Shown: piece after piece, positions 8,512 through 20,846 of the stretch
Position numbering within the stretch: the first letter of the stretch is position 1
Layout: each line of letters begins with the position of its first letter
Origin: an uncultured Candidatus Poseidoniales archaeon
GTDB taxonomy: Archaea > Thermoplasmatota > Poseidoniia > Poseidoniales > Thalassarchaeaceae
Direction: 5' to 3'
NCBI GenBank assembly: GCA_963996605.1
Contig: CAXEIX010000001.1
Location: forward strand, 1 to 30,790
Length of the DNA: 30,790 nt
Program-made: the position numbers and the translations under genes
Notes under the pieces: model-generated
The model's input: the letters and a program-made list of their open reading frames with translations, nothing else
What the model was told of the DNA's origin: nothing
The model's database searches: none

Positions 8512-10830
8512 ATGTCCGGGGAAGCGAATACAGGTTTCGATATCCGTAGGCTCGCATCCAGGATAGAGTCCGGAGCGCCGAGCGCGGTCCTTTTCTCACT
8601 AGCCATTTCCGTGGTACTGGTAACTGCGGGGATAATCTACGTCCTTGTGGTCAGAGCTGCGCCTTTCTACTCTGCTTTCGGTTGCGGAGCCGATGTCTTC
8701 AGCCCCCCTGACGATTGGTCCGATTCAGTGAAAGAAGATCTATGGGATTCGGCAAACTATAGTGACGGCTCCATCATGGACCCCCTATGGCTAGACTCAA
8801 CATGCATCGTATCATACGATAACGAATCAATGATCGGGCTCGATGAGCCACTGATAGTTTTCGAAAGAGACAGAGACTCGCTGGGAAATCCACTGGAAGA
8901 TCCAGAAGGACACCTCGGTTACTCCGGTAACTGGACCGTTCATCCGAATAGGCAGTATATCTGGGCATACCTCGATGAAAATCCCGAGGACAACTACTCT
9001 GTTGCGGAAGGGGAGTCTCTGAAGGATGCCCAGATACCACTGGGGTTGATGATAGAAACAAATCCCCAGACCAATAGGGCTAACGAGGGTGCACTGATAC
9101 TCCACAAGTCGGATCCCGACCTCAAGAGAGACTGGTTCGTGATCACTTGGGCGATGAGTAACAGATCACAAGTAGACGTAGACGGGGATGGCAAACCCAA
9201 TATCGGGGTGGATGAGAGGGGTACGGACCTAGATACCGACATAGATAACGACGGATTTGACAATGATCGTGACGATGATATGGACAACGACGGGATACCA
9301 AACGCTTTCGATCCGGATGAGCGGATCCCTAATGTCGACTTTTTCGGCCTATTCCTTGGCTTATTGACCATAATTTTCGTGATTATGAATGTCTTCGCAC
9401 CTATGTGGTTGTCCAGGTTCGAGGATGAAGTCATCGACTCCACTATATCCCCATTGAACTCATTCTCAGTAGTAATTCTGACAATCTCCTCCATCGGGCT
9501 AATCTACCCGATGTCCCAATCCTTCATCTCGTACCTCCTACTAGCAACGATACTGTTGGCCATAATCCTCGCATGGTCCTCCAAGATAACACCACTCGGG
9601 TCGATTGCAGCAGCATTCGCACTACTGTGGCTTTCCATATTGCCAACCCACGCGATTCAAACAGGCCACCTGATGGCCCTAGGCCTCTCCCTTCTGCTAC
9701 TCCAAGTGACGATGTCTGATACGAGGAACCGAGTAAAACCAGACTCAACTCCCCTGGTAATTTCATTTCCGCTATGCAGAGACAGTTGGTCCCCAATTTC
9801 AGAAAGATCCTTCGGAGACAATGCATCACAGAGAGCTCGTAACATCGCCAGGTTGGGGATACTCCCATTGGCACCCTTGCTGGATTTTTCCCGCAGCCTC
9901 AGGAAATTCGCTACCCCTCGCTCGTCTTTTCTGGACAGGGACTTCAAATCTCTTCTTTGGGTAGTCGCCACAGTAGCCTTGGTTTTATCCTTCTTGGATC
10001 TCGTAGCAAGGATTGACGGGAGCATTGGGGAATTCCTGACCCAGACACTGTGGCGAACTGACATTAGGACGGTATCAATAGTCACCGTCTCAGAGAATTT
10101 GTCCATTGGCGTGAACGCACTATTGCGGACAACCCTACAAGTTGCACTTGGAGCCCTAGTGATCGCAATTCCCCTTGGCCTAGGGACTGCGATATACCTG
10201 TCCGAATATGCAGATCCAAGAACTTCAAACCTAGTTAAGCCAACCCTCGAGATCCTAGCAGGAATCCCCTCCGTCGTCTACGGCTTCTTCGCATTCGTGG
10301 TAATTTCCCCGATAGTGATGGATGTAGGCTCGCAACTTGTAGAATGGGGGTGGATGGCCGACGAGCCCCAACAGTTCAACCCTATCAACGGGGCCATAGT
10401 GGTCGGAATCATGATCACGCCTCTAATCGCCAGCCTATCGGAGGATGCACTCAGATCTGTTCCAAATAGCCTCAGAGAGGCATCATACGCTCTAGGGGCG
10501 ACTCCGGTCGAAACCACCTTCAGAGTGGTAATCCCATCAGGACTCTCGGGAATCCTTGCTTCGATTATATTGGCATTCTCCAGAGCTATCGGGGAAACAA
10601 TGGCCGTAACTATCTCCGTGGGGACAGCCGCATACTACACAAGAAACATGTTTCTGAGTTCTCAGACAATGACTGCGTACATTGCAAAGAAAATCCAGGG
10701 GGACCTTCCCGCGGGAACTTCTGCATACTACTCAATGTTCGCAGTCGGACTGTATCTGTTCATAATTACTCTAGGGTTGAATATGGTCGGCCAGAGAATA
10801 ATGCATCGCTTCAGGGAGGCATACGAATGA
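8512..10830 (+). CDS. pstC: Phosphate ABC transporter permease PstC with large N-terminal extracellular and membrane insertion
   Basis: The C-terminal ~240 aa carry PstC motifs (GTAIYLSEYA, KPTLEILAGIPSVVYGFFA, REASYALGAT, SRAIGETMAV). Total length 772 aa. Confidence 0.92.
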   Translation: MSGEANTGFDIRRLASRIESGAPSAVLFSLAISVVLVTAGIIYVLVVRAAPFYSAFGCGADVFSPPDDWSDSVKEDLWDSANYSDGSIMDPLWLDSTCIVSYDNESMIGLDEPLIVFERDRDSLGNPLEDPEGHLGYSGNWTVHPNRQYIWAYLDENPEDNYSVAEGESLKDAQIPLGLMIETNPQTNRANEGALILHKSDPDLKRDWFVITWAMSNRSQVDVDGDGKPNIGVDERGTDLDTDIDNDGFDNDRDDDMDNDGIPNAFDPDERIPNVDFFGLFLGLLTIIFVIMNVFAPMWLSRFEDEVIDSTISPLNSFSVVILTISSIGLIYPMSQSFISYLLLATILLAIILAWSSKITPLGSIAAAFALLWLSILPTHAIQTGHLMALGLSLLLLQVTMSDTRNRVKPDSTPLVISFPLCRDSWSPISERSFGDNASQRARNIARLGILPLAPLLDFSRSLRKFATPRSSFLDRDFKSLLWVVATVALVLSFLDLVARIDGSIGEFLTQTLWRTDIRTVSIVTVSENLSIGVNALLRTTLQVALGALVIAIPLGLGTAIYLSEYADPRTSNLVKPTLEILAGIPSVVYGFFAFVVISPIVMDVGSQLVEWGWMADEPQQFNPINGAIVVGIMITPLIASLSEDALRSVPNSLREASYALGATPVETTFRVVIPSGLSGILASIILAFSRAIGETMAVTISVGTAAYYTRNMFLSSQTMTAYIAKKIQGDLPAGTSAYYSMFAVGLYLFIITLGLNMVGQRIMHRFREAYE

Positions 10831-13800
10831 ATGGAGAAAACCACGGTTTCAGCCTTTTCGGGGTTAAATCGTTGCCTCAGAAGTCTCGAAAGAAAAGAGA
10901 TAGAATAGCGAATGCTGGAAAAGCAACGTTCATCCTGATTGCTCTGACCTGTGCAATCATACTATTCACAATGGTGTCTAGGATATACTCTGAAGCATAT
11001 GTCCCTTCGGAAGAAACCGAGGTTAGCGGAATAGGTGCCAATAAGCCCCTGTCCGAGACAGTAAAGTCTTGGAACGTAGAGACGTGGAACGAGGACTGGT
11101 CAGTCGACGATCCCCGAAGAGAAAGGACAAACGTCACCCTAAGGGCCGAGTGGACGGAGGTCAAGTACGAGGCTTACAACCAAAACGGGGTATTGGGAAT
11201 AACATTCGATCGATACGAAGACATCCAGAGATATCTTTGCGATGAAGGGATTATGGCGGACTCATTCGCCCCGTACGAGTCCTGGAAACCCAAGCACCTT
11301 CTCCCGGGACAAGACAGAGAACCCGCGTCGTACGATCCAATCTCTGACCAATTCTTCGACATTTTCCTTCGGGACACCCCCCCTACCGCTGGAATTGGAG
11401 ACTTCTGGATAGACTCCTCGGATGGAAACATTGCTCACATCTGGAAGGGGCTAAGGTGGGAAGAATTAGACCCACAGTCTTCGATGCTCTCCGAGATTTC
11501 CCAGAGACATCCTTACGATGAGGGGTCCCGGGATCCAATATGGTCCGATCAGAAAATCCGCGTTTACTACAGCCCAATAGAACCGCTGTTTAAGTCGTCG
11601 GGAGACATTTGGATTGTCACAGACGAGTCCGGGGACAGAATCGATTTCAGAACCTACAATTACACACTTTGGAAGGAAAACCGCTACACATCAGGTTGGG
11701 GCTGGGAAAATGGCAGCCTGGAAGAATTACCAAGCATCCTCCCCTTGCCGGAAGAACTGAATGAAGAAATCCACCCAGAATTCTGCTCAAGAGCAGAAGT
11801 GGCCGTCTTCATCCAAAGAAATGGACTCACCGGGTCTTACGAGATTTACCACATTTCCCATGATGACGGATACTCTTTCCGAGTGAAGCCGGGATCCACC
11901 AAGGCCATTCACAATGACCTGGAAATAGTCCTGTCCAATCACTGCGAAGGGTCTTTCCACAGCTCAGGGATCAGAGCAGACTTTTCTATACCTGAAGGAG
12001 ATTTCTGGTACAATATCTCTTCATTTCCTCCAAATTACGGGGGAGCGGGTCACGTAGGTGAAGGGGACTATTGGGTCGATTCCGATTCTTCCAGCAGCAA
12101 GGCATACCGTTTTGAAAACGGATCTTGGAAGGCCGACTATACGATTTCCCCGCTCATATACCCGTGCGATAGAATGACTCTAATGATTAGGGGTGACGGA
12201 GAGTTCTCGTATGGCAACATGACTCAATGGAACAAATATGGAGTCAGACAAGACTCCAGCTTCTTCTACGACCAGGAACCGAATGAAATCCAAACAATCA
12301 CCCTTCATCCTGCCCAGATAGGCCAATCAGGCTTGGGATCATTGTGGTTGGAGCACACAATGAATTACACCGTAACCTTCACTCAATTAGAAGGCCCTCC
12401 ATCCGATGCCAGGGACGGCTCATACAAGGAGGTCGACGACTTCATCCTCGGTCCGATGGGCGATTGGCTGAACTCTAGAATCTTCAATGACGGGGACCAG
12501 GATAACGACGGAATTTACGATGTCTGTGATGGTGACATAGACGGGGACAACAGCAAGAACCCAATAATGGGCGGAGACCAAGGCGACCCCGAGTCATTGG
12601 AAAGGGCCCTGAGCCAATGTCCCCAAGCCGTGCCTATGGTCCTAGAAGATGGCCAGATCAACGAAGAATGGATGATCGACACAAATTCTGATGGAGTCCA
12701 TGACGACACCGAGGACGATGACATAGACGGGGACGGGGTGAAGAACCTAGTCGATGGCCAAGGACACAATCTAGCATCACTAACAGATAGCGCAAGATGG
12801 GGGTGGCCCGAAGAGGGAATGACATCCTCGGAGGCGATTGAATTCTACCAATCACTCGACCCATCCTCTCCGGACAAAGGCCTAGAGTCCCTGATAGGGA
12901 TCTGGGAGGACGCCAGAGACTCCGAAGAAAGGATGTGCGATGAGTCATACAAGAACAAGTTCCCATCACTTGCAAAGGATGACTGTAGACGCTCTACAGA
13001 GTTCAACGCTAACCCCCCAATGGATGCAGACGAGTGGTGCGAAGGGGCAATGACGCTATTGCAACCAAGAGTCTGGTCTTCCTACTGCGGCATCTCGACA
13101 TCTTTAGAGACGGGTATCGATGAATATCAGGATCCCTTTCCGCTGGAAGAGATATTTGCATACGCGTTGCTCATTGCAGCCTTCTTGCTGATGCTTTTCC
13201 CCGGGGTGGTGGTCCTCCCTGCAAGCAACTTCCTGAGGAGGTTCGATGGCGATATTATAGAGACAAATCCCACGTGGTCCAGAATAGTCTACCTGTCAGA
13301 ACTCATAGGGCGCCTAGTCTCACTTGCTATGAGATCAATATTGCTGATCGTCGGTGCTTTCATTCTGTCACAAACACTGGCATCGCCGATAGCAATCATG
13401 ATCTTCGTATTCACCATCGGAATCTCACTAACATTGATGTCAGGGCTGGCCGTATTAACCTCAATATCATCAATCATCAAACTCAGGCCAGAAGATGGAG
13501 TTAGGCCGTCCGAAGGGGCGGTAGAGGGGACCTTCCTCCTTCTAACATTGATTACATGGTTAGTTGTAGCTGATTGGGTCATCGATCGCGGAATCCTGTC
13601 CGGGTCAATCTGCCTACTCCTAGCACTGTCTGCAACAAAAAGGATGGCTGCCGGTGCATCGCAACTGACTCGAAGCCAGAATATCAACTCCGACAGGGTC
13701 AAGAGGGTTGTGATGGGCAGAGACGGTTGGATAATCGTTGCCTCAGTCTTCCTCATCGTGGGCTTCTTTACTATCCCATTCGAGGTAGTCAACTCCTTCA

Positions 13801-14681
13801 TTTTCTCAAATTTCCCCTCACAGCAACCATACCGGGCGGGATTGAGGGCCGCTTTCTGGGGGAGCGTGTACGTTGTGGGTTACACAATGATATTCGCCAT
13901 CCCCGTTTCCATAGGGGGGGCAATCTGGCTGGAAGAGTACGCTCCAAGGGGGAAACTTCAGTCCGGGATACAGACCCTGATAACCAACCTAGCCGGAGTC
14001 CCTGCCGTAGTCTTCGGTTTGTTCGGCCTTGCACTATGCTCCTCAGATCGAGGATTCGGAATGGGCCTAGGGGGGACCATCCTCACCGCGGGAGTGACAA
14101 TGGCGACAATGGCAATGCCAACCATAGTTATTGCAAGCCAAGAGGCACTCCGAGCAGTCCCTCCATCATTGAGAGAGGGAGCATTCGGAATCGGTTGCAC
14201 GAAGTGGCAAGTGGTCAAGGACCACGTCCTCCCACACTCAATGCCGGGAATGATGACTGGCACCATACTTGCAATGTCCAGAATTATGGGCGAGGCAGCA
14301 CCTCTGATACTAGTAGGTGCGGTGACCTCAGTCTTCCAGGAACCAGACCCGCTCTACTACGTAGACTATACCTGGCTCCCCACCATCGATGGATTCTTCC
14401 AATGGGTGCCGGGCTTGGAGTCTAGGGTATCAGAGATGCCTATGTGGGCAGATAGGCCAATCATGACTGCAGACCCAACTTCTTTCACAACCTGGGGTTC
14501 GAACCCCGGTGGAAAATACACCGTCCTACCGGTCCAGGTATACACTTGGACCGATCAGCCAGAGGAGGGATTCAAGGTCGCGGCCGCAGGTGCATCACTG
14601 GTGCTTTTGGGAACGTTGGTCATGGTCAACTCCGTGGCAATCCTCGTCAGGGCGCACTTCAGGAGATTCTCACAGGCTTAA
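10827..14681 (+). CDS. pstA: Phosphate ABC transporter permease PstA with ~730 aa extracellular insertion
   Basis: ATGA overlap with pstC. The C-terminal part has PstA motifs (AIWLEEYA, NLAGVPAVVFGLFG, SLREGAFGIGCTKWQVV, SRIMGEAAPL, TVLPVQVYTW). Total length 1284 aa. Confidence 0.92.
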   Translation: MNGENHGFSLFGVKSLPQKSRKKRDRIANAGKATFILIALTCAIILFTMVSRIYSEAYVPSEETEVSGIGANKPLSETVKSWNVETWNEDWSVDDPRRERTNVTLRAEWTEVKYEAYNQNGVLGITFDRYEDIQRYLCDEGIMADSFAPYESWKPKHLLPGQDREPASYDPISDQFFDIFLRDTPPTAGIGDFWIDSSDGNIAHIWKGLRWEELDPQSSMLSEISQRHPYDEGSRDPIWSDQKIRVYYSPIEPLFKSSGDIWIVTDESGDRIDFRTYNYTLWKENRYTSGWGWENGSLEELPSILPLPEELNEEIHPEFCSRAEVAVFIQRNGLTGSYEIYHISHDDGYSFRVKPGSTKAIHNDLEIVLSNHCEGSFHSSGIRADFSIPEGDFWYNISSFPPNYGGAGHVGEGDYWVDSDSSSSKAYRFENGSWKADYTISPLIYPCDRMTLMIRGDGEFSYGNMTQWNKYGVRQDSSFFYDQEPNEIQTITLHPAQIGQSGLGSLWLEHTMNYTVTFTQLEGPPSDARDGSYKEVDDFILGPMGDWLNSRIFNDGDQDNDGIYDVCDGDIDGDNSKNPIMGGDQGDPESLERALSQCPQAVPMVLEDGQINEEWMIDTNSDGVHDDTEDDDIDGDGVKNLVDGQGHNLASLTDSARWGWPEEGMTSSEAIEFYQSLDPSSPDKGLESLIGIWEDARDSEERMCDESYKNKFPSLAKDDCRRSTEFNANPPMDADEWCEGAMTLLQPRVWSSYCGISTSLETGIDEYQDPFPLEEIFAYALLIAAFLLMLFPGVVVLPASNFLRRFDGDIIETNPTWSRIVYLSELIGRLVSLAMRSILLIVGAFILSQTLASPIAIMIFVFTIGISLTLMSGLAVLTSISSIIKLRPEDGVRPSEGAVEGTFLLLTLITWLVVADWVIDRGILSGSICLLLALSATKRMAAGASQLTRSQNINSDRVKRVVMGRDGWIIVASVFLIVGFFTIPFEVVNSFIFSNFPSQQPYRAGLRAAFWGSVYVVGYTMIFAIPVSIGGAIWLEEYAPRGKLQSGIQTLITNLAGVPAVVFGLFGLALCSSDRGFGMGLGGTILTAGVTMATMAMPTIVIASQEALRAVPPSLREGAFGIGCTKWQVVKDHVLPHSMPGMMTGTILAMSRIMGEAAPLILVGAVTSVFQEPDPLYYVDYTWLPTIDGFFQWVPGLESRVSEMPMWADRPIMTADPTSFTTWGSNPGGKYTVLPVQVYTWTDQPEEGFKVAAAGASLVLLGTLVMVNSVAILVRAHFRRFSQA

Positions 14682-14693
14682 GGGGGAAAAATA

Positions 14694-15803
14694 ATGAAAA
14701 AAGAAAACGCAAAGAAGGAGAAAATCAGGACATCCGTCCTGGAAAAACTGAGGGAGATTATGGAATCAGACGGCGAAGTCAGCGATGAGGAGCAAGTCAG
14801 ATTCGATAGTATGGAGAGGACACTGAACGACTTATCCAGAGAACCATCGAGGAGCGAAGTCAGACTGATGCTCACCTCGATGTCCAAGGTAGACGGAGTG
14901 GCAGATTTCGCAGAGTCAGCAATCATCAAGAAATTCATGGAGTCGCTCCCTGAGGAGCCGCCGAAGGACAATGAAGGTGAGAAAGGGGATCTTCCGGATA
15001 ACATCAATCCGGACACACTCCAATCAACCAGGGAACTCCACATAGATGGCGAGGCGCAAATAGAAGTCAAGGATCTTAACCTAAGATATGGCTCAGCACA
15101 AGCTCTATTCGACGTCTCAATCCCAATAGAGAAAAACTCCGTAACCTCTCTAATCGGACCATCAGGTTGTGGGAAGTCTACATTGCTCAGATGTCTGAAT
15201 AGAATGAATGACCTAATCCCCATCTGCAACTTTGACGGTAGCATCGTTTACGATGGCGATGACATCAACAAGTCAGGCACCGACCTTGTAAGGCTAAGGA
15301 GAAAGATAGGGATGGTGTTCCAGAAGCCCAACCCATTCCCCAAATCAGTATTCGACAACGTATCATACGGGGTTCAATTACACTACAACCCCTCAAGGAG
15401 GAAGATGAACGAGATAGTCGAGAAGTCGCTCACCAGTGCCGCTCTTTGGGGAGAGGTTTCGGACCGCCTGCATGAACTAGGGACCAGCCTTTCAGGAGGC
15501 CAGCAGCAGAGGCTCTGCATAGCCAGGACCATCGCGGTCGAGCCAGACGTAATTCTGATGGACGAGCCATGCTCCGCGCTAGACCCCATAGCCACGGCCA
15601 AGATAGAGGACTTGATTACGCAGCTGAAGGAGCACTTCACAGTGGTCATTGTCACTCACTCAATGTCCCAGGCAATGCGAGTCTCGGATTACACCGCATT
15701 CATGTTCCTTGGCAGATTGATAGAGTTCGACAAGACGGAGAAGATCTTCAACAACCCGGGCAATGAGCTGACAGACCGATACATCTCGGGAAGGTTTGGC
15801 TGA
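14694..15803 (+). CDS. pstB: Phosphate ABC transporter ATPase PstB with ~120 aa N-terminal extension
   Basis: Walker [10 protein letters not shown], PstB-typical [10 protein letters not shown] and [12 protein letters not shown], signature [13 protein letters not shown], Walker [14 protein letters not shown]-terminal YISGRFG. Confidence 0.96.
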
Positions 15804-15897
15804 ATCGTGATTCGAGCACTCGGAAAGAACTCCAAAACCCCGACAAATTAGTTATATAAAATATATAGTTTACATAATAACTATAACCTGTACTGCG

Positions 15898-16191
15898 ATG
15901 GCGCTAGCGATGGCTAGCAACTCGAGGGTCTGGGCCCTGATCGGAATCTCGATCATTTCCGTAGCTTCATTGACAGTCGTGGCAACAAACTCGATCGCCA
16001 TAGAAAGGGGGGAGGTTTCGGCCCTCGGTTCAAAGGAAATCCTCTGTATCGCCGACTCATGCATGACTTCTGAGATAGTTTACATAGAGGGGGACGAAAC
16101 AACATATCTCGTATACATGCCACCAGGATTAGATTCCAACAAGAAAGTAGGAACGCAATATTACGGGCTAAAGATGAGCCTGGGGAGGTGA
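15898..16191 (+). CDS. Small hypothetical protein with N-terminal hydrophobic helix
   Basis: 97 aa with VWALIGISIISVASLTVVA. Follows an AT-rich promoter-like region (15845-15890). Confidence 0.5.
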   Translation: MALAMASNSRVWALIGISIISVASLTVVATNSIAIERGEVSALGSKEILCIADSCMTSEIVYIEGDETTYLVYMPPGLDSNKKVGTQYYGLKMSLGR

Positions 16192-16195
16192 AGAA

Positions 16196-16396
16196 ATGAA
16201 TGAAGAAGTGATGGATGTGGATTTGGATAGCGTAGAGAACTTCGCACTGCTGAGACTCAGAGTTAACGACGAGTCCTTCGCCCACATTGAGGTCAGACCC
16301 TGTTCCGGGGAAGGTGTTGTCCTGCAAATCTTCCAGATAATGGGGGACAATTCCAGAAAGGCCGTAAAATGGATTCCAAACATTCCAATTAACTAG
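16196..16396 (+). CDS. Small hypothetical protein
   Basis: 66 aa, preceded by a perfect archaeal SD GGAGGTGA that contains the stop of the upstream ORF. Confidence 0.6.
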   Translation: MNEEVMDVDLDSVENFALLRLRVNDESFAHIEVRPCSGEGVVLQIFQIMGDNSRKAVKWIPNIPIN

Positions 16397-16522
16397 GTCG
16401 GGGCAGTGTTTCCACTGGCCATAGAATATGGTAATTTTGAAACCTCTTGATTACTATTGTTCAATCTTAGATTATTTGGAAACTGGATATTCAGTGCTAT
16501 CTACGCAGGGCTTTTGAGTACT

Positions 16523-18523
16523 ATGAAAAAAGCAGGTATGAACAAGGCTGGAGCAATGACGCTCCTAATGATGATTGCAGCTCTAGCGGGCTGCGTAGGC
16601 GGAGAAACGGATGTCGATTTCGACCAGGCTCTGGTGGATCTTCAACCCGCATCGAGCAACGATTGCGAGGACGGGGGGACATGGGTCCATATCGGACTGG
16701 ACGCAAATAAGAACGGTAATCTCGATACATCCGAGATAACCGAATCGGTCGCAGTATGCAACGGCCAAGACGGAGATCCCGGGTCCCAAGGGGCACAAGG
16801 GCCCCAGGGAATCAGGGGTACTTCCGGAGAGGATGGTACTGACGGGGCAAACGGCGACTCAGGACTGCCCGGACAAGATGGCGAACAGGGGGCCACTGGG
16901 AACACCGGAAGCATGGGTCCAGTAGGACCTACCGGGGAAACCGGACCTGTAGGGCCCGCTGGGATGGACTTCGTCCACTGCCTTGCAGGGGATGGAGCAG
17001 CGTCTGTCAATGCCATGGTGGAATACTGCCCAGATAGCACGACTATCCTCGCTCAAGGCTCTTCTTACGCATGGTCGCTTGTAGGGAGCTTCCAATCAGC
17101 GCCACTTGGTTGCGACATGGGGGAGGACGAGTGCGAGGGGTACGCGGAGGTACCAGCCTACGACGCAGCGTCACAAAGGGCCTTCGTTGTCAATGCAGAA
17201 GACAGCTCGGTCGACATCATCGACATGAGCACTCCTAGTGATCCAACTCTGCATTTCAGACTAGTAATATCCAATGGAGAACCAAACAGCGTTGCCGTCA
17301 GCCCTAACGGACTAGTCGGCGTGGCCGTTGCGGTCGACCCAAAGCAAGACAACGGTCTCGCAATGTTCTTCGATACCGATGGGGCCCTCGTAGGCTCGGT
17401 CACTGCTGGCGCACTGCCAGACATGATCACCTTCACGAACGACGGAACCAAGGCTCTGATCGCCAATGAGGGAGAGCCAGACGATGACTACGACATCGAT
17501 CCAGTCGGCTCGGTTACAGTGGTGGATGTTTCGGATACCACAAGCCTGACAGCCACACAGGTTGGATTCACGTCCTTCAATTCGCAGATGGCTACTCTAG
17601 AGGCTAGCGGAGTCAGGATATTCGGGCCCGGTGCCACAGTGGCTCAGGACCTGGAGCCCGAGTACATCGCAGTTGCGGGCGACGACTCGACCGCCACAAT
17701 CGTGATGCAGGAGAACAACGCTGTCGCCACTCTCGACCTATCGACCAACACCATAACAGGCATCCACGCTCTTGGGTTCAAGGATTACTCCACACTGTCG
17801 CTTGACCTAAGTGACAGGGACGGGGGGGTCAACTTCCAGAGCTGGGACAACGTCAAGGGAATGTACCAGCCCGATGCAATGACCTCATTCGTAGCTAGTG
17901 ACGGGGTCACCTACTATGTCTCTGCCAACGAGGGAGATGCAAGGGATTACGATGGATACTCCGAAGAGGAGAGAGCCGATGACCTAACTCTAGATGCGAC
18001 ATCCTTCCCTGAAGGCGTTTCAGATGCCGATCTCGGTCGATTGAAGACGACCACTGCCGATGACTGTGGGGACACAGATGGCGATGGAGACGTGGACTTC
18101 ATCTGCAGCTACGGCGCCAGGTCTTTCTCGATATGGAAGTATGACAGCTCCGGAGACTTCGTTCAAGTCTGGGACAGTGGCGATGAGGTCGAGCACCTCA
18201 TGTCGGTAAACGGGCAATGGATTAACGGGTACACCGGTTCCAGGAATGACGACAAGGGCTCCGAGCCAGAGGGTGTAATCACTGGAGATTTCTTGGGTAG
18301 AACCCTAGCATTCGTAGCCCTGGAGAGATCAGGCGGAGTGATGATTTACGACCTCACTGATCCAGCCTCGCCGTTCTTCGTCCAGTATGTGTACATGCAC
18401 GATCACGTCTCGCCAGAGGCAATGGCATTCGTATCAGGGGCAGATAGCCCCAACGGAGCACCAATGCTGATCGTGGCAAACGAGGTCAGCGGTACGGTTG
18501 CCGTATTGCAACCAATGGTCTGA
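16523..18523 (+). CDS. Secreted lipoprotein with collagen-like stalk and choice-of-anchor-I (alkaline-phosphatase-associated) beta-propeller domain
   Basis: Lipobox-like ALAGCVGG. Domain motifs ANEGEP, LEPEYIAV, MYQPDA, ANEGDARDY, GARSFSIW, RNDDKGSEPEG, LERSGGVMIYD, SPEA and ANEVSGT. Start taken at ATG 16523 (the ORF track starts at 16457). Confidence 0.8.
   Translation: MKKAGMNKAGAMTLLMMIAALAGCVGGETDVDFDQALVDLQPASSNDCEDGGTWVHIGLDANKNGNLDTSEITESVAVCNGQDGDPGSQGAQGPQGIRGTSGEDGTDGANGDSGLPGQDGEQGATGNTGSMGPVGPTGETGPVGPAGMDFVHCLAGDGAASVNAMVEYCPDSTTILAQGSSYAWSLVGSFQSAPLGCDMGEDECEGYAEVPAYDAASQRAFVVNAEDSSVDIIDMSTPSDPTLHFRLVISNGEPNSVAVSPNGLVGVAVAVDPKQDNGLAMFFDTDGALVGSVTAGALPDMITFTNDGTKALIANEGEPDDDYDIDPVGSVTVVDVSDTTSLTATQVGFTSFNSQMATLEASGVRIFGPGATVAQDLEPEYIAVAGDDSTATIVMQENNAVATLDLSTNTITGIHALGFKDYSTLSLDLSDRDGGVNFQSWDNVKGMYQPDAMTSFVASDGVTYYVSANEGDARDYDGYSEEERADDLTLDATSFPEGVSDADLGRLKTTTADDCGDTDGDGDVDFICSYGARSFSIWKYDSSGDFVQVWDSGDEVEHLMSVNGQWINGYTGSRNDDKGSEPEGVITGDFLGRTLAFVALERSGGVMIYDLTDPASPFFVQYVYMHDHVSPEAMAFVSGADSPNGAPMLIVANEVSGTVAVLQPMV
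16763..16969 (+). repeat. Collagen-like Gly-X-Y repeat, 23 uninterrupted triplets
   Basis: GQD GDP GSQ GAQ GPQ ... GPV GPA GMD, counted from the translation. Confidence 0.9.
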
Positions 18524-18535
18524 GACCAACGAAAA

Positions 18536-18564
18536 TGGGCAGGGGGGCAAGGCTCCCCTGCCCA
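18536..18564 (+). terminator. GC-rich stem-loop after the choice-of-anchor-I gene
   Basis: TGGGCAGGGG (18536-18545) pairs with CCCCTGCCCA (18555-18564) and extends inward. It starts 13 nt after the stop and has no immediate U-tract. Confidence 0.6.
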
Positions 18565-18620
18565 AACATTCTCATTTGTCAGCCGACAGATAGTTAGATT
18601 CGGCACCGCGGGGAAATGTA

Positions 18621-19349
18621 ATGGAAATCCTCCTATTGGCTTTCATAGGGACCTTTTTCGCAGCAGCGCTGACTGTTCCTGCTGGATTCGGCCTCTCAAC
18701 AATGCTGACTCCAATCGTACTTCTGATCATGGGCCCACATGAAGCAGTGGCAGTAGTTGCGGTCGTCCATGCGGCTCACAATGCTGGCAAATTCATCGCC
18801 CTGAGGGATAGCGTGGACTTCTCGGCATTCAGGCGCTATGGGATATGGCTGGTATTCGGCTCTATCGCTGGAGCGCTGCTGCAGAACCGCGTTCAACAGG
18901 AACCGCTATTGGCTCTAATCGGGGCCTTCCTGATAATCCTCCCAATATTGACCCTCAGCGAGTCATGGACTGGGTACAGGATTCCCGAGGCCAATGACAG
19001 GTTCGGCGGCCTCGGATCAGGATTCATGGGGGGTCTTTCAGGACACCAGGGTGCACTAAGGGCGATGTTTCTGACACGTCGTTTGCCAGACAAGATGTCC
19101 TATGCAGCCACTGCGAGCGTTCTAGCCCTCTGCGTCGATCTCTCAAGGGTCCCAGTTTACATCCTCTCTCGGCCCGAAGAAATCTACCAGCACCTACAGC
19201 TGACTGCGGTAATGGTGATTTCCGCGCTGATAGGGGTCAGGGCAGGAAAGAAGTGGCTAGAGTCACTGAAAAGCGCATGGGTCAATAAAATGGTAATGTC
19301 GGGAATAATTGCCAGCGGCGTATTCTATATCTACATGGCACTTTACTGA
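18621..19349 (+). CDS. TauE/SafE (TSUP) family anion permease
   Basis: 242 aa, hydrophobic, two-fold internal repeat with GFGLSTMLTP and GFMGGLSGHQGALRAMFL. Confidence 0.82.
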   Translation: MEILLLAFIGTFFAAALTVPAGFGLSTMLTPIVLLIMGPHEAVAVVAVVHAAHNAGKFIALRDSVDFSAFRRYGIWLVFGSIAGALLQNRVQQEPLLALIGAFLIILPILTLSESWTGYRIPEANDRFGGLGSGFMGGLSGHQGALRAMFLTRRLPDKMSYAATASVLALCVDLSRVPVYILSRPEEIYQHLQLTAVMVISALIGVRAGKKWLESLKSAWVNKMVMSGIIASGVFYIYMALY

Positions 19350-19437
19350 TTTTGAGAGTCCCCTGGATATACCACAGAGTAATACGCACAAGTCTGCTCC
19401 GCTGCTTGCTCGCTAGATTTCAATTGGAGGTTTTTTG

Positions 19438-20175
19438 ATGGTTCAGAATGGGATTTTGATTGCTGTCGAGGGCATGGACGGATCCGGGAAGAGCACGCAA
19501 GCAAAGCTGCTGTACCACTGGCTCAGGGCCAAGGGGCTCCCGGTCTTCCACACCGAGTGGAACTCGAGCAAGATAGTCAAGCAAGCGACCAAGATAGGGA
19601 AGAATACCCATAGGCTCCTGCCAATCACGTTCCACATGATACATGCCGCAGACTTCGCAGACAGGTGGGCACAGCAGATAGAACCGGTCTTGGAGATAGG
19701 CGGGATAGTGATTTGTGACCGCTACAAGTATACGGCCATGGCGAGGGACGGTTCAAGGGATGTCCCCCGAGAGGTCATCGAGGACACATACTCATTCGCG
19801 AGGGAGCCAGACCTGACCCTGTACTTCGACGTCCCAGTGGATGTCAGCTTCGATCGCATCGCCAAGGGCCGACCGAGGCTGAAGTTCTACGAAGCCGGGA
19901 TGGACATGGGGTGGACGACCGACCCGTTCGAGTCCTACAGGATCTTCCAAGGCAAGGTCTCGGAGATCTACTCGGGACTCGTGGACGAGGGAAGGATCGT
20001 ACGCCTCGATGCCGAGGGAACCGTGGCGGAGGTCCAGTCCAGGGTTAGGGAGGCCTTCGACAAGCACATCGACCTCTCTGAGGTACAGGTCATCGACCAA
20101 TCGGATAGGCTAGCACAGAATCTCAGCGAGTCCGACATCGACTGGCTAACGTACTCGGGGGGTGAGGGGGAATGA
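19438..20175 (+). CDS. Thymidylate-kinase-fold P-loop kinase, putative catalytic subunit of a heteromeric polyphosphate kinase
   Basis: Intact Walker A EGMDGSGKST and DRY. TEWNSS replaces the TREPG motif and there is no AYQG motif. SD GGAGG at 19426-19430. Confidence 0.75.
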   Translation: MVQNGILIAVEGMDGSGKSTQAKLLYHWLRAKGLPVFHTEWNSSKIVKQATKIGKNTHRLLPITFHMIHAADFADRWAQQIEPVLEIGGIVICDRYKYTAMARDGSRDVPREVIEDTYSFAREPDLTLYFDVPVDVSFDRIAKGRPRLKFYEAGMDMGWTTDPFESYRIFQGKVSEIYSGLVDEGRIVRLDAEGTVAEVQSRVREAFDKHIDLSEVQVIDQSDRLAQNLSESDIDWLTYSGGEGE

Positions 20176-20846
20176 GCCACGCGGGCAAGCTGATAGTAAT
20201 CGAGGGCCCGGACCACGTAGGAAGAACCCTACACGTGCGCCTCCTATCTGCCAGGTTGAAGGCGAACGGAATCGCAACCCACATCATAGGGCTGGCCCGT
20301 TCCGAACTGATGGGCGAGATTGTCAAGTCAAGAACCGCTGACATCCACCAGCTGAACTGGCGAACCAGGTCGCTCCTGTACGCCACCGACCTGCACGACC
20401 AGATCAAGCACGAGGCAGAACCGCTGCTGGATGCCGGATTCGTGGTCATCGCTGACCGGTACACACTCACTCCGAGGATCAGGGAGCAGGTGAGGGGCGG
20501 GGATGGTGATTGGATCGACTCGCTATACTCCAATACCCCCGATCCCGATGCCATGATCGTACTCCACGCAGGGCCTCGCCGACTGTTGAACCGAATCATG
20601 TTCGGAGAGAGCCTGGAGGCGCTGAACCACTTCGAAGCAGGCATGGACCTCGCACTCTCCTCGTCCATCACCTCTTCCTTCCTGCAGTACCAGAAGATCC
20701 TCAGGCAGGAGTTCCAGGATGCTGGGAAGACAGCAGGCGCCACCCTGATTCCGACTAGACACACCGTCCAAGACGTCCATGACAGGATATGGGACTCGGT
20801 ATACCCAGTCGTGGAGCACATGCTACAGCCGATAGATGGGAACTAG
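20172..20846 (+). CDS. Thymidylate-kinase-fold paralogue with degenerate P-loop, putative regulatory subunit
   Basis: EGPDHVGRT replaces GxxxxGKS/T. It shares DRY and F/YEAGMD with the upstream gene, and has an ATGA overlap with it. Confidence 0.72.
   Translation: MSHAGKLIVIEGPDHVGRTLHVRLLSARLKANGIATHIIGLARSELMGEIVKSRTADIHQLNWRTRSLLYATDLHDQIKHEAEPLLDAGFVVIADRYTLTPRIREQVRGGDGDWIDSLYSNTPDPDAMIVLHAGPRRLLNRIMFGESLEALNHFEAGMDLALSSSITSSFLQYQKILRQEFQDAGKTAGATLIPTRHTVQDVHDRIWDSVYPVVEHMLQPIDGN

What the first reader, a model, noticed from the sequence alone, without database searches (positions are those of the whole stretch)
10827..13800. Giant PstA (1284 aa) with a ~730 aa ectodomain and two more Asp-rich Ca-binding-type tracts
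Seen: one N-terminal TM, then a long acidic domain with DGDQDNDGIYDVCDGDIDGDN (12489-12551) and DTNSDGVHDDTEDDDIDGDGVKNLVD (12678-12755) and numerous Cys. About six extra TM helices precede the PstA core, and a further Trp/Pro-rich insertion sits in the last outer loop. The parallel architecture in PstC (TM, ectodomain, DxDxDG, extra TM bundle, core) implies coordinated expansion. Inference: a surface-capture or adhesion apparatus built into an ABC permease, for example for particle-bound or mineral phosphate. I know of no described Pst system with this layout.
Basis: partly seen in the sequence, partly recalled or inferred. Interest (0 to 1): 0.82.

Follow-up and report, generated by a model that had tools for sequence, protein, structure and literature searches.

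The report
Giant phosphate permease with surface domain
A marine group II archaeon makes a phosphate-uptake permease four times the normal size, with a 723-residue outward-facing domain partly built from phage tail-fibre-type repeats; it belongs to a conserved, transcribed "giant" version of the Pst phosphate transporter that I found described in no paper.

Summary
Its C-terminal 320 aa are a PstA core above the curated cut-off. Before the core come a signal-anchor TM, a 723-aa acidic ectodomain (aa 53-775) and five more TM helices. A 45-aa insertion sits in the last outer loop.

This is not a one-off. Fifteen further Poseidoniales genomes from both families carry the same giant PstA. In every locus with enough DNA it sits beside a giant PstC (693-835 aa), a 3-4-fold tandem PstS and an N-terminally extended PstB. 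The ectodomain is under purifying selection (dN/dS 0.06-0.15). Marine metatranscriptome contigs cover it without frame-breaking indels.

New here: aa 172-290 are two units of a ~61-aa repeat shared with hundreds of phage tail and tail-fibre proteins. A species of the same genus carries a compact pst cassette at the same locus, so the giant system is a swappable cassette.

Function is inferred. Most likely the ectodomains form a Ca-stabilised extracellular scaffold around the PstS docking site. Adhesion or mineral-phosphate capture is untested. Another ABC permease in this genome also has a large, unrelated ectodomain. Verdict: a new variant of a known system.

The parts
10827..14681 (+). pstA, giant form, 1284 aa
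   Evidence: Intact ORF. TIGR00974 above cut-off and PF00528. Fifteen orthologues of 1089-1284 aa (the 1089-aa one is cut by its contig's end).
10827..10982 (+). Basic cytoplasmic N-tail (KSRKKRDR) plus signal-anchor TM1 (aa 33-51)
   Evidence: Kyte-Doolittle scan. Positive-inside rule read from the sequence. The N-terminus is conserved in relatives.
10983..13151 (+). Ectodomain, aa 53-775: acidic, 8 invariant Cys, conserved N-x-T sequons (N102, N513)
   Evidence: dN/dS 0.06-0.15. Found only inside PstA frames.
11340..11696 (+). Two phage tail-fibre-type repeat units (aa 172-290; ...PT..G.GDFWID..D....W.GLRWE...)
   Evidence: phmmer: 280 hits at E<=0.001, mostly large multi-repeat proteins; those examined are phage tail or tail-fibre proteins. 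BLAST aligns in register, E 8e-13. AF2 model pLDDT 83. Foldseek matches phage J-fibre and tail-fibre models at probability about 1 but TM below 0.5.
11949..12266 (+). Lineage-specific insertion (aa about 375-480) with two more degenerate GDxW motifs
   Evidence: Present only in the window protein and its 97%-identical relative. Weak repeat match, E 6e-4.
12489..12551 (+). Asp-rich tract 1 (aa 555-575), two DxDxDG motifs plus an invariant Cys
   Evidence: Pfam TSP_3 is sub-threshold.
12678..12755 (+). Asp-rich tract 2 (aa 618-643), one DxDxDG motif
12774..13151 (+). Membrane-proximal helical module with four invariant Cys (C704, C720, C738, C754)
   Evidence: AF2 predicts helices with pLDDT 60-84 in this segment. 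Invariant Cys. No specific fold match.
13152..13718 (+). Five additional TM helices plus a basic cytoplasmic linker (aa 776-964)
   Evidence: Conserved in all giant PstA. No relatives elsewhere.
13719..14678 (+). Canonical six-TM PstA core (aa 965-1284)
   Evidence: 69-88% identical among giant PstA.
14355..14501 (+). 45-aa Trp/Pro-rich insertion in the last outer loop
   Evidence: Gap against the 578-aa PstA of L020. Conserved among giants.
8512..10830 (+). pstC, giant form, 772 aa, same building plan
   Evidence: TIGR02138 at 235.8 bits. TM scan. Orthologues of 693-835 aa.
4916..8407 (+). Triple tandem PstS with a lipobox-like N-terminus
   Evidence: Three PBP_like_2 / TIGR02136 stretches. 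3-4 units wherever the whole gene is held.
14694..15803 (+). pstB with an N-terminal extension of about 120 aa
   Evidence: TIGR00972 at 388.7 bits, aa 123-369. Extended in all giant loci, to 288-471 aa.
3718..4764 (+). AbrB/MazE-PhoU regulator upstream
   Evidence: Pfam. Present beside most pst loci fetched.

Best explanation
Shown: this is the PstA membrane subunit of a distinct giant variant of the PstSCAB high-affinity phosphate ABC importer, so far found only in Poseidoniales (marine group II archaea). It has 12 predicted TM helices: a signal anchor, then a 723-aa extracellular domain, five extra helices, and a normal six-helix PstA core with a 45-aa insertion in its last outer loop. The ectodomain is modular. 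It has an N-terminal beta-rich part, two phage tail-fibre-type repeats, a variable beta-rich part, two invariant Asp-rich DxDxDG tracts, and a Cys-rich helical module next to the membrane. The gene always travels with a PstC built on the same plan, a membrane-anchored PstS of 3-4 tandem binding domains, and an extended PstB. The whole set is a swappable cassette at the pst locus. Inferred: the PstA and PstC ectodomains and the enlarged outer loop form a Ca2+- and disulfide-stabilised extracellular superstructure around the PstS docking site. It would hold or orient the tandem PstS domains, as the MalF P2 loop does for MalE and as tandem fused binding domains do in GlnPQ. In a cell with no periplasm this would raise the rate at which phosphate-loaded binding domains reach the translocation gate when phosphate is scarce.
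For: Identity and topology. Conservation: 15 orthologues in both families; core 69-88% identical, ectodomain 25-55%. Purifying selection on every ectodomain segment: dN/dS 0.02-0.23 per segment, 0.06-0.15 overall, against 0.008-0.024 for the core. An outside location fits 8 invariant Cys, invariant N-x-T sequons, the acidic composition and the positive-inside pattern. Co-expansion of all four subunits, and mutual exclusivity with compact systems among the 38 genomes that have a true PstA. Every giant-specific addition to PstA that is not membrane-embedded faces outward: the ectodomain and the last-loop insertion. In E. coli PstSCAB, PstS docks on the periplasmic loops of six-TM PstA and PstC (PMC12976172). 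A higher local concentration of binding protein is reported to raise the encounter rate (PMC12379486 discussion). Expression: contigs from four marine metatranscriptomes, about 96% identical, span 7169-12351 and 12323-16021 with no indel inside pstA. Depth falls from pstS to pstC and 5' pstA to 3' pstA and pstB, as expected of an operon mRNA. The MalF-P2 and GlnPQ analogies come from my own knowledge of those systems.
Against: No structure of useful confidence was obtained for the whole ectodomain (pLDDT 49). No interface could be predicted between the PstA and PstC ectodomains; the job returned no verdict. A PstS-docking role is pure analogy. In phages the repeat units probably work as trimeric fibre shafts, which a single PstA chain cannot copy. 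An RNA library can contain DNA, and I could not lay a silent control stretch. No protein-level evidence exists. Another ABC permease in the same genome carries an unrelated large ectodomain, so the layout may answer a general envelope need rather than a phosphate-specific one.
Confidence: 0.5

Rival explanations
1. One reading: the ectodomains are an adhesion or capture device that ties the transporter to particles, minerals (Ca-phosphate) or polyphosphate, so that phosphate is taken up at its source.
For: Invariant DxDxDG Asp tracts of the Ca-binding type in both PstA and PstC. Repeat units are shared with phage receptor-recognition fibres. MGII genomes are reported to carry thrombospondin-type adhesion genes (PMC6461757). 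A candidate surface protein with a choice-of-anchor I domain and collagen repeats lies just downstream.
Against: Pfam does not certify the tracts as TSP_3. The system keeps a classical soluble-phosphate binding protein, multiplied 3-4 times, which points to dissolved orthophosphate as the substrate. The tail-fibre-type units resemble fibre-shaft repeats rather than receptor-binding tips.
Confidence: 0.15
2. A general envelope scaffold: the ectodomain is a spacer or anchor that fits the transporter into the cell envelope of this single-membrane archaeon (S-layer or glycocalyx). It would have no direct part in phosphate capture, and would reflect a lineage habit of adding ectodomains to ABC permeases.
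For: A 794-aa amino-acid-type ABC permease in the same genome has a TM, an ectodomain of about 350 aa (Ycf48/BNR-like), extra TMs and then the core. The mid-size Poseidoniales PstA already has a TM, a 190-aa ectodomain and one further TM. The ectodomain evolves 4-8 times faster than the core, as surface-exposed structural parts often do.
Against: Compact pst cassettes work in sister species with the same envelope, so the envelope does not demand the ectodomain. The expansion is tied to the multiplication of PstS, which suggests a link to substrate capture.
Confidence: 0.2
3. Virus-related: the tail-fibre-type module was captured from a virus and now serves as a decoy or modified receptor surface in the virus-host arms race, or is neutral baggage.
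For: The repeat is otherwise found in phage tail proteins: PHROG tail-fibre and J families, a T4-like contig, an Arthrobacter phage minor tail protein. The pst cassette sits in a low-GC, swappable island.
Against: The two units are conserved in all giant PstA of both families with dN/dS 0.02-0.23. That argues against both neutral baggage and diversifying selection. They make up only about 120 of 723 ectodomain residues.
Confidence: 0.05
4. Artefact: a mis-assembled or fused ORF, or a decaying gene whose N-terminal 960 aa are not part of the working protein.
For: The genome is a fragmented MAG (301 contigs, 85% complete).
Against: The same architecture occurs in 15 other genomes, some on contigs of 200-350 kb, in a UniProt/AlphaFold DB entry of 1195 aa, and in independent metatranscriptome contigs without indels. 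Purifying selection acts throughout. The start is translationally coupled to pstC.
Confidence: 0.02

Closest known systems
Canonical PstSCAB (E. coli; cryo-EM, PMC12976172)
   Same: The same four subunits and gene order. The PstA and PstC cores match the equivalog models, with a six-TM core each. PstB is a standard ABC ATPase. PstS is of the PstS family.
   Different: E. coli PstA and PstC have six TMs and only short periplasmic loops. Here each permease has about six extra TMs and an ectodomain (723 aa and 223 aa). PstA has a 45-aa outer-loop insertion, PstS is a 3-fold tandem, and PstB has an N-terminal extension.
MalF of the maltose importer MalFGK2 (own knowledge: 8 TMs, about 180-aa periplasmic P2 loop that embraces MalE)
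   Same: A type I ABC importer permease with extra N-terminal TMs and a large extracytoplasmic domain placed between them. This is the functional precedent for a permease-borne domain that docks the binding protein.
   Different: No sequence relation was found or tested beyond family scans. The ectodomain here is four times larger, lies between extra TM1 and TM2, and is composite. A docking role is only inferred.
GlnPQ-type importers with tandem substrate-binding domains fused to the permease (own knowledge)
   Same: Several binding domains are kept at one transporter in an organism without a periplasm. An N-terminal extracellular extension sits on the permease.
   Different: Here the tandem binding domains are a separate, lipobox-anchored protein. 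The permease ectodomain is not a binding-protein fold by any scan.
Repeat units of phage tail-fibre, central-fibre (J) and minor-tail proteins (the proteins match phrog_33754 and phrog_25191; examples P0023, P0026, P0027)
   Same: Two consecutive units of about 61 aa align in register, with the signature P-T-x(3-4)-G-D-[LFI]-W-x-D...W-x-G-x-x-W. Foldseek gives probability about 1.0 to phage fibre models.
   Different: Only two well-kept units (plus degenerate ones) against 5-21 in phage proteins. The PstA ectodomain itself hits no PHROG model at E<=0.01. It lies in a cellular membrane protein present as a single chain, not a trimeric fibre. TM-scores are low (0.25-0.48).
Mid-size Poseidoniales PstA (578 aa, L020) and fused PstCA (622 aa, L019 and L021)
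   Same: Same order of organisms and same locus type. The 578-aa form already has an N-terminal TM, an ectodomain of about 190 aa and one extra TM, with faint N-terminal similarity to the giant form (E 0.003).
   Different: The core is only 33-48% identical to the giant core. These forms have a single PstS and a normal PstB, and lack the repeats, the Asp tracts and the last-loop insertion.

Membership tests
PstA, phosphate ABC transporter permease (NCBIfam TIGR00974, equivalog) | Whole-protein score above the curated cut-off | tested here: met
   203.7 bits against a cut-off of 193.45, aa 975-1279. The same result from the genome search.
PstA, phosphate ABC transporter permease (NCBIfam TIGR00974, equivalog) | BPD_transp_1 domain with the EAA-type coupling loop and a six-TM core | tested here: met
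   PF00528 at 67.7 bits. Six hydrophobic segments after aa 965. The loop QEALRAVPPSLREGAFGIG...VLP is read directly from the sequence and is invariant in relatives.
PstA, phosphate ABC transporter permease (NCBIfam TIGR00974, equivalog) | Encoded in a pstS-pstC-pstA-pstB operon | tested here: met
   PstS (TIGR02136, 411 bits), PstC (TIGR02138, 235.8 bits) and PstB (TIGR00972, 388.7 bits) are adjacent on the same strand. The pstC and pstA ORFs overlap by 4 nt.
PstA, phosphate ABC transporter permease (NCBIfam TIGR00974, equivalog) | Transports orthophosphate | not testable with these tools
Thrombospondin type 3 repeat (Pfam PF02412) | Score above the gathering threshold (25 bits) | tested here: not met
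   16.6 bits, E 0.0062, on aa 500-775. Only 1 of 23 orthologous ectodomains reaches E<0.01. The resemblance is at motif level only (DxDxDGxxDxCD).
Phage tail-fibre repeat proteins (matched by phrog_33754 and phrog_25191) | Significant match of the repeat unit | tested here: inconclusive
   phmmer of the ectodomain finds about 270 repeat-bearing proteins; the best non-PstA hit is E 4e-52 over several stretches. BLAST gives E 8e-13 in register. But the ectodomain hits no PHROG HMM at E<=0.01, and structural TM-scores are below 0.5.
MalF-type permease with a binding-protein-docking ectodomain | The ectodomain contacts the substrate-binding protein | not tested
   This is an analogy only. The single complex job went to PstA ectodomain with PstC ectodomain and gave no verdict.

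The most novel reading that the evidence does not exclude
The giant Pst system is a self-contained extracellular phosphate-harvesting machine. The PstA and PstC ectodomains, loaded with Ca2+ in seawater, and the tethered 3-4-fold PstS would form a private pseudo-periplasmic cage on a cell that has no periplasm. Tail-fibre-type and Asp-rich modules taken from the viral and adhesin repertoire would concentrate or channel phosphate, or hold the cell to phosphate-rich particles. This would be an architecture with no counterpart among described ABC importers.
Probability: 0.2. Interest if true: 0.85.

Novelty: new variant of a known kind. Interest (0 to 1): 0.62.

Why it matters
Marine group II archaea are among the most abundant planktonic archaea in surface oceans, are uncultivated, and live where phosphate is often limiting. 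Only about a quarter of sampled Poseidoniales genomes carry a true Pst system, in one of three forms: fused, mid-size or giant. The giant form swaps with a compact one at the same locus in sister species. That makes it a candidate niche-defining trait for phosphorus acquisition. For transporter biology, it is a type I ABC importer in which all four subunits are enlarged together, and the permeases carry about 950 extra extracellular residues. This gives a natural test case for how binding-protein delivery can be engineered at the cell surface without a periplasm. The presence of a phage tail-fibre repeat module in a cellular permease is also unusual. It raises testable questions about module exchange between marine viruses and host surface proteins.

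Tried and rejected
1. AF2 on the whole ectodomain with a 23-row alignment gave mean pLDDT 49 and pTM 0.30. VIA-align against 48,161 PDB chains then gave only generic helical matches, Z<=6.2. Neither is usable.
2. phmmer of the ectodomain against PDB sequences: no hit at E<=1.
3. Pfam and PHROGs on ectodomain pieces: nothing except sub-threshold TSP_3.
4. ESM Atlas feature search: no usable hit.
5. Foldseek of the confident repeat model against PDB: nothing at E<=0.001.
6. Complex prediction, PstA ectodomain with PstC ectodomain: score 0.00, no verdict. This counts neither for nor against binding.
7. hhalign of the PstA and PstC ectodomains: only the Asp-rich tract aligns (28 columns, probability 31%). 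The extra-TM bundles show no detectable homology (probability 2%). The two expansions are therefore not simple duplicates of each other.
8. Word-based search with the extra-TM bundle: only a partial giant PstA was found. I could not test my recollection that some bacterial PstA and PstC proteins (Pseudomonas, Vibrio) are also elongated.
9. Literature searches for a description of giant Pst permeases or tandem PstS in MGII found none.
10. The artefact or pseudogene reading is rejected (see rivals).

Full report
OBSERVATION. The window comes from a Poseidoniales (marine group II archaeon) metagenome-assembled genome of 1.3 Mb in 301 contigs, 85% complete. One relative of the protein is named by NCBI as PstA of a Candidatus Poseidoniaceae archaeon.

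window:10827-14681 (+) is a single open frame of 1284 codons. Its ATG overlaps the stop codon of the upstream gene by 4 nt (ATGA).

The C-terminal part is a PstA. NCBIfam TIGR00974 scores 203.7 bits (cut-off 193.45) over aa 975-1279, and Pfam BPD_transp_1 scores 67.7 bits.

The neighbours complete a pstSCAB operon:
- a 1163-aa protein with three PstS domains
- a 772-aa PstC
- a 369-aa PstB whose ABC domain starts at residue 123
- an AbrB-PhoU regulator upstream

A hydropathy scan shows a basic N-terminal tail and a TM at aa 33-51. Then comes a 723-aa hydrophilic stretch (aa 53-775) with 140 acidic and 53 basic residues, 10 Cys and 25 Trp. Five further hydrophobic helices follow, then a basic linker and six core helices. 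The charge distribution places aa 53-775 outside the cell, and the even number of added helices keeps the core in its normal orientation.

A 45-aa insertion (about aa 1177-1225) sits in the last outer loop relative to a 578-aa Poseidoniales PstA. The one correction is that the six extra helices are split, one before and five after the ectodomain.

IT IS A CONSERVED SYSTEM, NOT A ONE-OFF. A word-indexed search found 11 full-length relatives of 1159-1284 aa. They align over the whole length.

I surveyed 151 Poseidoniales genomes with the PstA model. Only 38 have a PstA above the cut-off, and these fall into two size classes. One class has open frames of about 580-675 aa. The other has frames of 1090-1403 aa paired with PstC frames of 700-838 aa. 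The giant class is present in both families. Within one genus, different species carry one class or the other.

I fetched 15 giant loci and 3 compact ones. Every giant PstA (1158-1284 aa; one 1089-aa copy is cut by its contig's end) lies in a giant locus. Wherever the fetched DNA reaches, it sits beside:
- a giant PstC (693-835 aa; 14 of 15 loci)
- a PstS of three or four tandem units (1061-1397 aa in the ten loci that hold the whole gene)
- a PstB extended to 288-471 aa

The compact loci have one PstS of 330-369 aa, a PstB of 255-271 aa, and either a fused PstCA of 622 aa or a PstC of 460 aa with a PstA of 578 aa.

The giant cores are 69-88% identical to each other but only 33-48% identical to the compact cores. 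The ectodomain is 25-55% identical among giants.

Nei-Gojobori estimates on five close pairs give dN/dS of 0.06-0.15 for the ectodomain, 0.05-0.19 for the extra helices and 0.008-0.024 for the core. The added parts are under clear purifying selection, though less tightly than the core.

Eight Cys and two N-x-T sequons (N102 and N513) are invariant. This fits a disulfide-bonded, glycosylated surface domain.

IS IT MADE? Sixteen marine metatranscriptome runs from eleven studies hold a tenth or more of the gene's sampled words. I laid the assembled contigs of four runs, from two studies, on the operon. At about 96% identity they give one contig across 7169-12351 (end of pstS, all of pstC, and the 5' 1.5 kb of pstA). 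Another covers 12323-16021 (the rest of pstA, and pstB). The only indel is a 1-nt difference at 8504, in the pstS-pstC spacer.

Depth falls stepwise from pstS to pstC and 5' pstA, then to 3' pstA and pstB. That is the pattern of an operon mRNA, not of contaminating DNA. I could not run the silent-stretch control, and there is no protein-level evidence.

WHAT THE ECTODOMAIN IS MADE OF. An exhaustive phmmer search of 1.84 billion representatives found whole-ectodomain relatives only in PstA-sized proteins. About 270 further hits all matched one segment, aa 172-287, usually several times per protein.

These hits are long repeat proteins with the unit ...ADGK-I-x-x-FYQ-x(3)-PT-x(3-4)-GDLW-x-DT-x-x-GN-x-LY-x-W-x-G-x-x-W.... 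Those I examined are phage proteins:
- They carry PHROG tail-fibre, tail or central-fibre-J families, or Pfam Phage-tail_3.
- One is the minor tail protein of Arthrobacter phages.
- One lies in a T4-like contig between neck and PAAR genes.

BLAST aligns two consecutive PstA units in register with two consecutive phage units (E 8e-13). Both units are conserved in all giant PstA.

With a 70-row alignment, AlphaFold2 folds aa 163-300 at pLDDT 83 and pTM 0.76. Each unit is a small beta-meander followed by a helix. Foldseek matches this model to phage J-central-fibre and tail-fibre models at probability about 1 but TM below 0.5. It also matches the AlphaFold DB model of a 1195-aa UniProt "PstA" at TM 0.75. 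No solved structure matches.

The window's protein has a lineage-specific insertion (aa about 375-480) with two further degenerate GDxW motifs.

The Asp tracts carry three DxDxDG motifs and an invariant Cys. They resemble thrombospondin type 3 repeats, but Pfam gives only 16.6 bits against a cut-off of 25. I call them Ca-binding-type motifs, not TSP3 repeats.

The last 125 residues before the membrane are predicted helical and hold four invariant Cys. The rest could not be modelled (pLDDT 49 overall) and has no family, PDB or Atlas match.

The PstC ectodomain shares only the Asp-rich tract with PstA. The two extra-helix bundles are not detectably related.

DISTRIBUTION AND ORIGIN. The ectodomain has no paralogue in this genome. 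Among 301 genomes of the phylum it occurs only in the two Poseidoniales families, always inside a PstA frame.

The extra-helix bundle has no relatives outside giant PstA. A likely stepping stone exists: the 578-aa PstA already has an N-terminal TM, an ectodomain of about 190 aa and one more TM, with faint N-terminal similarity to the giant form.

In a species of the same genus, the flanking genes are 79-95% identical to those in the window. Between them lies the compact fused cassette, with PstS 26%, PstCA 33-43% and PstB 56% identical. The window's pst region also has lower GC (0.44-0.57) than its flanks (0.59-0.64). The giant system is therefore one of several alternative cassettes at a conserved locus.

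Tully et al. had noted that a phosphate-binding subunit occurs only in some MGII subclades. I found no paper that describes the giant architecture.

A CAUTION. Among the other ABC permeases in this genome, one amino-acid-type permease of 794 aa also has an N-terminal TM, then an ectodomain of about 350 aa (Ycf48/BNR-like), extra helices and the core. It does show that this lineage tends to put ectodomains on ABC permeases. That argues for a general surface logic rather than a purely phosphate-specific one.

MECHANISM. Shown: identity, topology, modular make-up, co-inheritance with tandem PstS, purifying selection and RNA presence.

Inferred: in E. coli, PstS docks on the short periplasmic loops of six-TM PstA and PstC (PMC12976172). 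Here, every giant-specific addition that is not membrane-embedded faces outward and surrounds that docking face. The binding protein is multiplied and membrane-anchored. By analogy with the MalF P2 loop and with the tandem binding domains of GlnPQ (my own knowledge), I think the ectodomains most likely form a Ca2+- and disulfide-stabilised scaffold. It would keep and orient the tandem PstS domains over the gate and raise capture efficiency at low phosphate (confidence about 0.5).

One complex prediction for the two ectodomains returned no verdict and counts neither way.

VERDICT. This is a real, conserved and transcribed giant variant of the Pst importer, restricted so far to marine group II archaea. 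It has an ectodomain that is largely unassignable, apart from a module shared with phage tail fibres. It is a new variant of a known kind, and its function beyond phosphate import is open.

Noticed in passing
L019 (G019:C26:28000-38000) against window 3718-20846: A species of the same genus has a compact cassette at the same locus: single PstS, fused PstCA of 622 aa, PstB of 255 aa. It lies between flanking genes 79-95% identical to the window's (TauE and the thymidylate-kinase-like pair). The AbrB-PhoU regulator is only 59.5% identical, so it appears to travel with the cassette.
   Followed up: partly
L020:3433-5169 (-), PstA of 578 aa: A mid-size PstA in the other family has a TM at aa 40-58, an ectodomain of about 190 aa and one extra TM before the core. 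Its partner PstC (460 aa) has four extra TMs and no ectodomain. This is a possible intermediate between the canonical and giant forms.
   Followed up: partly
L023:1485-3869 (-) = G000:C85: A 794-aa ABC permease in the same genome has a BPD_transp_1 core at aa 574-784, with an ABC ATPase gene next to it. It carries an N-terminal TM and an ectodomain of about 350 aa that matches PSII_BNR/Ycf48 (43 bits), followed by extra TMs.
   Followed up: partly
window 14694-15056 and PstB of L004-L018: PstB carries an N-terminal extension in all giant loci, of variable length (total 288-471 aa) and only partly conserved. In the window it gives a weak, sub-threshold TerB match (18.9 bits against a cut-off of 24.4).
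   Followed up: partly
window 16457-18523: The downstream gene encodes a 688-aa protein with DUF7151, collagen triple-helix repeats and a choice-of-anchor I domain (349 bits). A homologue also lies next to the giant pst locus in L018.
   Followed up: no
window 3001-20000: GC content is 0.44-0.57 across the pst region and 0.59-0.64 on both flanks. The lowest value (0.44) is at 4001-5000, around the pstS promoter region.
   Followed up: no
PstC ectodomains of L004-L007, L014 and L015: In two genera of the other family, the PstC ectodomain carries a further Cys-containing insertion of about 110-125 aa just before the Asp-rich tracts. A conserved DPLWLD..C motif in all PstC ectodomains faintly recalls the GDxWxD motif of PstA.
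   Followed up: no
window 8504: All four metatranscriptome assemblies lack one base here, in the pstS-pstC spacer. It is the only indel across 12.8 kb at about 96% identity.
   Followed up: no
L006:785-4978 (+): One giant locus has a PstS with four tandem binding units (1397 aa) rather than three.
   Followed up: no
L022:10001-18688: A 2895-aa protein made largely of the same repeat lies in a T4-like phage contig, directly after a PAAR gene and near the gp13, gp14 and gp15 neck genes.
   Followed up: no
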